Shown piece by piece: positions 39,977-40,690 of a stretch of 64,000 nucleotides of DNA. Origin of the DNA: Octopus vulgaris. Taxonomy: Eukaryota. Each line of letters starts with the position of its first letter. Within the stretch, counting starts at the first letter, position 1. Under the pieces are notes generated by a model that was not told where the DNA came from, did no database searches, and saw only the letters and a program-made list of their open reading frames with translations. The position numbers and the translations under genes are program-made. Location of the stretch: the NCBI GenBank assembly GCA_951406725.2, contig OX597817.1:11346001-11410000 (forward strand), given 5' to 3'.

Positions 39977-40690
39977 ATTGATCAAAATAAAATAAAAACA
40001 TGATGCGAAGGATTCAGCGGTACATATGTTTCGGGCCTTTATTAGACAGATTTATAACAATGCATAATGTATGTCTGTGGCCTTCTTCAGCCGCGCACAA
40101 CAGCTTCCACAAGGACATGTGTTACATCAGAAATTCTTGGTTGGGGATGCAAATCCTCTCATTCACGTACGACATAATGCGGCAGCAGCATAGAATTGAA
40201 GCGTCCATCTCTTTCTTCTCTCAATGTAGAATGAGGAAAATTGGATGTTGAGGTAATGTAAATAAATACATATATAGAGGTGAAGATGGAGGGGCGAGAG
40301 TTCGGGACGAGGGATAAAAAATGTATAAAAAGTGTAAGTATAGAATAATATAAAAATGTAGAGGATAAAGATATAAAGAGTTGTAAGGAGATGTAAAGGG
40401 GGTATAAAGAAATATAAAGAAATATAAATAAATGTAAAGGCATAAGGTTATAAAGTAAAAATAGAAATAGAAATAAAAGTAAAAAAACCTGATAAAAACA
40501 TGATAAAAGTGTAAAAGAATGTAAAGATAAGGGATGTGTAGAGGTTACGGACCAAGCATGGTGGTCAGGAGATTGATAAAATTTAGTTGTAGAATTGTCA
40601 GTAAATCAACAGTTTCGTCTGGGGACCTAATGCGTTGTAAATCAGAGCTGATGAGCATTTAATCTGGTTCCTTGAATTAAATGGACTTCT
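39977..40690 (-). mobile_element. Penelope-like 3' remnant ending at (TA)n
   Basis: Pyrimidine-rich tract on minus followed by a hammerhead motif and a (TA)n junction. Confidence 0.5.
40017..40094 (-). ncRNA. type I hammerhead ribozyme motif with long loop II
   Basis: Minus: gcgg-CTGAAGA-AGGCC-(long loop ending ctAATAAA)-GGCCC-GAAAC-atat-GTA-ccgc; stem I gcgg/ccgc, palindromic ACATATGT; A.C mismatch at the base of stem II. Confidence 0.75.

What the first reader, a model, noticed from the sequence alone, without database searches (positions are those of the whole stretch)
40017..40094. Poly(A) signal inside hammerhead loop II, at cleavage-site spacing, in two unrelated elements
Seen: this minus-strand hammerhead has AATAAA near the 3' end of loop II, 17 nt upstream of the GUA cleavage position. 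The 63089 hammerhead has different stems and loop sequence but also has AATAAA (63141-63146), 25 nt upstream of its cleavage position, followed by T-rich sequence. Established: canonical 3'-end cleavage occurs roughly 10-30 nt after AAUAAA. Inference: ribozyme cleavage and polyadenylation may target the same window, giving a switch between polyadenylated RNA and cyclic-phosphate or circularisable RNA. I do not know of this arrangement being described. AATAAA is common in AT-rich DNA and n is only 2.
Basis: partly seen in the sequence, partly recalled or inferred. Interest (0 to 1): 0.75.

Follow-up and report, generated by a model that had tools for sequence, protein, structure and literature searches.

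The report
Poly(A) signal inside retrotransposon hammerhead ribozyme
Both motifs are the tail ends of two sister jumping-gene families present in thousands of copies in this animal genome, and the AATAAA they share is likely the elements' own tail-adding signal wrapped around the predicted self-cutting site, which would let one RNA end be either tailed or self-cut, though neither event was observed here.

Summary
Both hammerheads end Penelope-like retrotransposons with Hydra-clade hallmarks; their reverse transcriptases are about 60% identical and form sister lineages (support 99), so n is one origin, not two. 'Loop II' is a long, covarying helix II. Across 18 hammerhead lineages sampled in this genome, only these two fix AATAAA in helix II (about 1.2 expected by chance); a third hammerhead in the window lacks it, as do 26 published Hydra rows. 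Within the clade it is retained: 79 of 86 distinct cores in one lineage carry AATAAA or ATTAAA, it lies about 60-65 nt from the element end, ahead of a U/GU-rich tract, and in the focal family it is the only sense AATAAA in 4.7 kb. Against: the sister family has many other AATAAA, an adjacent hairpin is equally conserved, and no poly(A) junction was seen. Best reading (0.45): the elements' own poly(A) signal, interleaved with the ribozyme. The tail-versus-cut choice is known from hepatitis delta virus, with other geometry. Earlier scan notes cover other hammerheads of this genome, not this arrangement.

The parts
39974..40889 (-). 5'-truncated copy (916 bp, 3' UTR/pLTR end) of Penelope-like family 'E', ending in (TA)n
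   Evidence: 40 of 40 scored matches 99-100% identical over the 276-nt query, 1460 candidates; near-full element in L066/L211
40017..40094 (-). type-I hammerhead motif of family E; 51-nt helix II; A-C mismatch at 10.1/11.1 in the family; palindromic helix III; predicted cut after 40021
40038..40043 (-). AATAAA in the 3' arm of helix II, 17 nt before the predicted cut; 1795 of 1828 genomic matches of the flanking pattern carry it
39980..40000 (-). U-rich tract after the cut (candidate downstream element; also contains TTTATT, complementary to the hexamer)
   Evidence: sequence shows directly
62998..63201 (+). 5'-truncated copy of Penelope-like family 'A' (pLTR end), followed by (TA)n
   Evidence: 2207 candidates; full elements L212-L216
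62890..63000 (-). inverted piece of the same family's region downstream of the hammerhead, the usual Penelope-like 5' inversion
63089..63177 (+). type-I hammerhead motif of family A; 58-nt helix II with inner hairpin; predicted cut after 63171
63141..63146 (+). AATAAA in the 3' arm of helix II, 25 nt before the predicted cut
63191..63199 (+). TTGTTGCTT, GU-rich motif; its last 8 nt are invariant in alignment A1 (candidate downstream element or RT-recognition motif)
41611..41975 (+). partial copy of a 535-bp tandem, retrozyme-like family 'B' with a third hammerhead (core at 41614) that has no AATAAA in helix II: internal control

Best explanation
The two hammerheads are the terminal-repeat (pLTR) ribozyme motifs of two sister Penelope-like retrotransposon lineages, and the AATAAA in their extended helix II is likely the elements' own polyadenylation signal, inherited once from their common ancestor. 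Shown: element structure (pLTR with hammerhead - RT/endonuclease ORF - pLTR with hammerhead), relatedness, covarying ribozyme fold, conserved hexamer about 60-65 nt from the element end and ahead of a U/GU-rich tract. Inferred: Pol II transcripts reaching the 3' pLTR would be cleaved and tailed at or just past the ribozyme site to give mRNA for the RT; when the weak, dimer-type hammerhead folds and cuts instead, the hexamer is separated from its downstream element and any tail, giving a cyclic-phosphate-ended unit that could be circularised and copied. The copied RNA cannot be the tailed form, because genomic copies keep 34-45 nt beyond the cut and end in (TA)n.
For: Full elements with hammerheads at both ends of an RT + C-terminal endonuclease ORF. 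E and A are sisters, RT about 60% identical, SH-aLRT 99 with outgroups from other animals (96; quick trees). Hexamer kept although helix II of E and A no longer aligns: E 54 of 54 copies in clusters 20-21; A 62 AATAAA + 17 ATTAAA of 86 distinct cores and 17 of 21 representatives averaging 65% identity. Two separate sub-lineage changes both give ATTAAA (L215 group; L072 group). Hexamer-to-cut differs (17 vs 25-26 nt) while hexamer-to-end is about equal (17+42-45; 25-26+34-39). First 4 of 6 hexamer bases unpaired in the consensus fold. In E it is the only sense AATAAA in the 4.7-kb unit (0 in ORF vs 2.5 expected, 0 in 3' UTR vs 0.2). A third Hydra-type lineage (F) has AATAAA, AGTAAA or TATAAA 4-7 nt after the cut, and a metagenome relative has AATAAA 4 nt after the cut (L284).
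Against: No lineage-level enrichment: fixed in helix II in 2 of 18 lineages, sisters, vs about 1.2 expected for AATAAA and 2.5 for AATAAA/ATTAAA (lineages grouped by eye). Absent from helix II in 26 of 26 published Hydra rows and in 5 of 5 hammerheads found among 13 metagenome loci. Family A units carry 3-7 other sense AATAAA in the 3' UTR and 7-15 in the ORF, no depletion. The inner hairpin word TGYAAT is as conserved as the hexamer (17 of 21). T-rich tails follow hammerheads that lack the hexamer. A few A copies share AATCAA, not a signal. The same signal sits in the 5' pLTR about 250-275 nt before the ORF, where it must be ignored. In F the hexamer lies in an extended stem I, so pairing could explain it. 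The E-only depletion is weak (Poisson about 0.07) and 4 ATTAAA remain.
Confidence: 0.45

Rival explanations
1. The hexamer is a structural or protein-binding part of the extended helix II (A-rich internal loop contacting helix I or the U-rich tail, or bound by the element's RT), and only happens to read like a poly(A) signal.
For: It lies in an internal loop with its last two A paired (T33-A65 in 15 of 15); neighbouring helix II features are equally conserved; family A is full of other AATAAA; in E the tail has TTTATT and the minimum-energy fold pairs it with the hexamer; protein-assisted cleavage is reported for another Penelope-like hammerhead (PMC11167929, passages).
Against: The partner strand varies (T/G/A opposite the A run) without compensation; lineage-wide changes go to ATTAAA; E and A place the hexamer in different structural contexts yet at the same distance from the element end.
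Confidence: 0.35
2. Chance AT-rich hexamer in the common ancestor, copied thousands of times and kept only by AT bias and A-U pairing.
For: Lineage-level frequency equals background; 4-5% of equal-length window stretches contain it; E copies are near-identical, so their counts are not independent.
Against: Retained in 17 of 21 A representatives, while the best 6-mer pair in the 40 nt upstream reaches 10 of 21, and in both E and A across about 40% protein divergence.
Confidence: 0.15

Closest known systems
Hydra-clade Penelope-like elements with pLTR hammerheads (Craig et al. 2021, PMC8557442; passages, section 11, supplement parts 1, 2, 52 of 59 and one search)
   Same: C-terminal GIY-YIG-type endonuclease, DKT, RWK-type motif, CxCX5C linker, CxxC/CxH, (TA)n insertion, type-I hammerhead near the 3' end followed by T-rich sequence, frequent non-canonical pair at 10.1/11.1
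   Different: Units are 4.6-5.5 kb (published: generally under 3 kb); helix II is 45-85 nt (published rows: about 8-25 nt); AATAAA inside helix II occurs in none of the 26 published rows; the paper does not discuss a poly(A) signal there (0 occurrences of AATAAA in the main text)
Minimal hammerheads of metazoan Penelope-like elements (Cervera and de la Pena 2014, PMC4209133; parts 1-2 of 4 read)
   Same: short helix I, larger helix II, palindromic weak helix III, proposed dimer cleavage and circular template
   Different: helix II here is several times longer and branched; no overlap with a poly(A) signal described in the parts read
Hepatitis delta virus antigenomic poly(A) site and ribozyme (PMC2396440; passages)
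   Same: poly(A) processing and self-cleavage compete within a few tens of nt; mRNA versus circular replication template
   Different: HDV-type ribozyme; AAUAAA, poly(A) site (-33) and U-rich element all lie upstream of the ribozyme, not around its core
Clec2 3' UTR hammerhead (as summarised in review PMC6765202; passage)
   Same: hammerhead cleavage removes the tail-bearing end
   Different: cut lies between stop codon and poly(A) signal (like lineage F here), discontinuous ribozyme in a host gene
Metazoan non-LTR retrozymes (PMC7229834, passages; bioRxiv 10.64898/2026.07.22.740005, part 1 of 5)
   Same: type-I hammerheads, link to Penelope-like elements; matches the third window hammerhead (family B, 535-bp tandem units)
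   Different: non-coding tandem units; family B has no AATAAA in helix II

Membership tests
Penelope-like element, Hydra clade | single ORF with RT and C-terminal GIY-YIG-type endonuclease, flanked by pLTRs in direct or inverted order | tested here: met
   (motifs read by eye; Pfam gave no relevant hit for 4 pieces)
Penelope-like element, Hydra clade | DKT and RWK motifs | tested here: met
   DKT in E, A, G; RWK in A, RWA in E, RWR in others
Penelope-like element, Hydra clade | CxCX5C linker, CxxC and CxH in the endonuclease, no CCHH | tested here: met
   alignment A2; absence of CCHH judged by eye
Penelope-like element, Hydra clade | insertion into (TA)n | tested here: met
Penelope-like element, Hydra clade | generally short, under 3 kb (descriptive in the paper) | tested here: not met
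   hammerhead-to-hammerhead 4675 (L066), 4650 (L214), 5463 (L243); due to long 3' UTRs
Penelope-like element, Hydra clade | placement with the published Hydra RTs in a tree | not tested
   published proteins were not aligned; the trees hold only loci fetched here
Type-I hammerhead ribozyme (PLE minimal type) | CUGANGA, GAAA, UH core with helices I-III | tested here: met
   family A: 13 of 21 pairs change on both sides, 92.5% cells paired, 0 of 500 shuffles as high (relatedness inflates this control)
Type-I hammerhead ribozyme (PLE minimal type) | G10.1-C11.1 pair | tested here: inconclusive
   present at 63095; A-C mismatch at 40090 and in its family; mismatches here are common in published Hydra rows
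Type-I hammerhead ribozyme (PLE minimal type) | self-cleavage activity | not testable with these tools
   needs in vitro assay; the focal monomer does not fold as a hammerhead at minimum energy (z +0.97)
Canonical metazoan poly(A) site | A(A/U)UAAA 10-30 nt before a cleavage position, U/GU-rich element after it | tested here: met
   (spacing rule from established knowledge)
Canonical metazoan poly(A) site | hexamer accessible (single-stranded) | tested here: inconclusive
   4 of 6 bases unpaired in consensus; paired in some single-sequence folds
Canonical metazoan poly(A) site | RNA ends with non-templated A at this site | not testable with these tools
   only assembled contigs were offered; they cannot show ends
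   2 sister lineages of 18; about 1.2 expected

The most novel reading that the evidence does not exclude
A clade of cephalopod-type Penelope-like retrotransposons threads its poly(A) signal through its hammerhead (hexamer in helix II, downstream element after helix I), so that one RNA segment decides between a tailed mRNA for the reverse transcriptase and a self-cut, circularisable transposition template, an HDV-like switch built inside a hammerhead; other lineages would do the same with the signal just 3' of the cut.
Probability: 0.3. Interest if true: 0.7.

Novelty: new variant of a known kind. Interest (0 to 1): 0.4.

Why it matters
What hammerheads do in Penelope-like elements, and how these elements end their transcripts, is open (PMC8557442 calls the function unclear; PMC11167929 found cleavage dispensable in vitro). 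If the hexamer works, it gives a short, testable module linking 3'-end formation to ribozyme cleavage in young families with thousands of copies, and it predicts that sense insertions can truncate host transcripts. If it does not, what remains is modest: undescribed long-helix-II hammerhead variants in Hydra-type elements.

Tried and rejected
Rfam scan: only simple-repeat microRNA matches in the 150 rows shown. Pfam: nothing relevant. Naiad assignment considered and dropped: Naiads have an N-terminal endonuclease. Expression data: no RNA holder on record; 22 runs listed, all contigs. Eight lays over six runs (X1, X4, X5, X9, X10, X11): no poly(A) loose end near the cut among the rows shown (19 loose-end rows hidden), no GT-AG joint, contigs of three runs bridge the cut; one run (X10, which shows a cDNA adapter) stops 3 nt after the cut, one study only; none of this is evidence either way. 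Genomic tailed copies: 0 matches of the E core followed by 12 A within 30 nt, against about 1800 E copies; weak, as tailed RNA need not be retroposed. Viral contigs: no relatives. Pseudoknot of the hexamer with the GU-rich tail in family A: not kept in ATTAAA variants (read). 'T-rich tail proves a downstream element': rejected, it is general. Protein search for full lineage-F elements was not achieved; F is tied to a Hydra-type endonuclease only by L295, L296, L128, so it is not in the trees. The careful tree did not finish; both trees are quick searches. Pattern searches list only the first 100 places, all on contig 1, so lineage sampling is partial and only some helix III types were searched. 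Literature: 5 searches found no poly(A) signal inside a Penelope-like hammerhead; Lunse et al. 2017 (PMC5785218) was not held; PMC2377424 has no passage on polyadenylation (passages); bioRxiv supplements and most subscription papers could not be seen and may bear on novelty.

Full report
Observation. The minus-strand hammerhead has stem I GCGG/CCGC, core at 40090, a 51-nt segment between the two core halves, a palindromic helix III and a predicted cut after 40021; AATAAA is at 40043-40038, 17 nt before the cut. The plus-strand motif has AATAAA at 63141-63146, 25 nt before the cut after 63171. My scan found a third long hammerhead at 41614 without AATAAA. About 4-5% of equal-length window stretches hold AATAAA.

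What the elements are. The window lies in a 2.8-Gb animal genome; that it looks cephalopod is my recall of its repeats plus earlier scan notes, not a tool result. Each hammerhead ends a young high-copy repeat (1460 and 2207 candidates), often in inverted pairs and next to (TA)n. Longer copies show pLTR with hammerhead, an ORF of about 840-1090 aa with RT and C-terminal endonuclease, a long 3' UTR and a second hammerhead. DKT, RW(K/A), CxCX5C, CxxC and CxH match the Hydra-clade description in PMC8557442 section 11. I call the focal lineage E and the 63095 lineage A. Their RTs are about 60% identical and group together with SH-aLRT 96 (41 rows) and 99 (17 rows with three metagenome relatives as outgroup). 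Both are quick trees, and sampling was by similarity to E (150 scored of 4732 candidates). The two cases are therefore sisters, not independent.

Structure. In 15 lineage-A sequences stems I and II and an inner hairpin covary (13 of 21 pairs change on both sides). 'Loop II' is thus an extended, branched helix II. Four hexamer bases lie in an internal loop and the last two pair weakly. The focal monomer does not fold as a hammerhead at minimum energy, in line with the weak, dimer-type motifs of PMC4209133; cleavage is untested.

How widespread is the hexamer. Pattern searches gave 6484, 7508 and 1928 genomic matches for three helix III types, with controls of 23, 13 and 329. From 199 distinct hammerhead contexts in fetched loci I made 52 clusters and grouped 50 of them by eye into 18 lineages, leaving out two likely false hits (clusters 28, 51). 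Only A and E fix AATAAA or ATTAAA in helix II; single clusters of F and J have it; shuffles predict about 1.2 lineages for AATAAA and 2.5 for either word. None of 26 published Hydra rows (25 families) has it in helix II; read by eye, 5 families have AATAAA or ATTAAA just 5' of stem I and 2 at or just after the cut. Of 13 metagenome loci, 5 showed a hammerhead (2 by script, 3 by eye), none with the hexamer in helix II, one with AATAAA 4 nt after the cut.

Within the clade it is kept. E: 1795 of 1828 pattern matches, which mostly reflects youth, but also the diverged E sub-lineages (cluster 21, 5 of 5). A: 62 AATAAA and 17 ATTAAA among 86 distinct cores, 7 others (this set was selected on the downstream GU-rich motif); 17 of 21 representatives at mean 65% identity, against 10 of 21 for the best word pair upstream, but equal to 17 of 21 for the hairpin word TGYAAT. 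Two separate sub-lineages changed, both to ATTAAA; that ATTAAA is the commonest variant signal is established knowledge, recalled. The hexamer lies 17 (E) or 25-26 (A) nt before the cut but about 60-65 nt before the element end in both. Lineage F, tied to a Hydra-type endonuclease, has AATAAA, AGTAAA or TATAAA 4-7 nt after the cut, inside an extended stem I. In two E units the helix II copy is the only sense AATAAA (about 2.7 expected elsewhere), though a diverged E unit (L243) has 2 others, and A units have 3-7 in the 3' UTR and 7-15 in the ORF.

RNA evidence. Only contigs were available; they neither show nor exclude poly(A) ends. No genomic E copy has an A12 tail within 30 nt of the core. 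Copies keep 34-45 nt beyond the cut, so the copied RNA is either uncut and untailed or circular (inference; PMC11167929 reports internal RT initiation and uncut RNA as substrate in another family, PMC4209133 proposes circles).

Mechanism. Most likely the hexamer is the elements' own poly(A) signal, with the ribozyme core between it and a U/GU-rich downstream element; tailing would give mRNA and ribozyme cleavage would give the untailed unit (0.45). A structural or RT-binding role is close behind (0.35), and plain inheritance of a chance word is least likely (0.15). The 5' copy of the signal must be bypassed, which is unexplained.

Comparison and novelty. Hammerheads in pLTRs are known, including in Hydra elements; the poly(A)-or-ribozyme choice is known in hepatitis delta virus with the signal wholly upstream and in Clec2 with the signal downstream. 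Five searches found no signal placed inside a hammerhead helix. I file this as a new variant of a known kind, interest 0.4; the switch reading has probability about 0.3.

Noticed in passing
window 41611-41975 (+); L298: Family B: 535-bp tandem, retrozyme-like units with a hammerhead in each; arrays of up to 14 direct copies plus one inverted copy in the listing.
   Followed up: partly
window about 41636-41641 (+); clusters 1, 2, 6, 9, 11, 14, 34, 41, 43: A splice-donor consensus GTRAGT sits in helix II of all 7 lineage-B clusters and 2 of 5 lineage-M clusters, and in none of the other clusters: a second RNA-processing signal possibly overlaid on hammerheads.
   Followed up: partly
L294-L297, clusters 19, 22-24, 29, 30: Lineage F: AATAAA/AGTAAA/TATAAA directly after the cut, within an extended stem I; Clec2-like geometry.
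   Followed up: partly
L219-L221: Lineage G: Hydra-type element with an 85-nt helix II, hammerhead about 330-440 nt from the element end, and a 2.1-kb 3' UTR with 0 sense but 20-22 antisense AATAAA; E has 15 antisense AATAAA in its 3' UTR.
   Followed up: no
L101, L121 (clusters 25, 26): A hammerhead lineage that ends in (CA)n rather than (TA)n and lacks the hexamer.
   Followed up: no
window 53349-54200: 184-bp tandem array, with dispersed and inverted relatives at 2502-2797, 23365 and 51580.
   Followed up: no
window 46004-46102: Near-perfect inverted repeat of about 99 nt.
   Followed up: no
window 25063-27241 (+): Broken transposase-like frames (resemblance recalled, not searched) and a weak hammerhead-like match at 25063.
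   Followed up: no
L038 minus strand, about 2300-2700: Fragment of another Penelope-like endonuclease with a CxxxxxCxxC linker, Neptune-like by recall.
   Followed up: no
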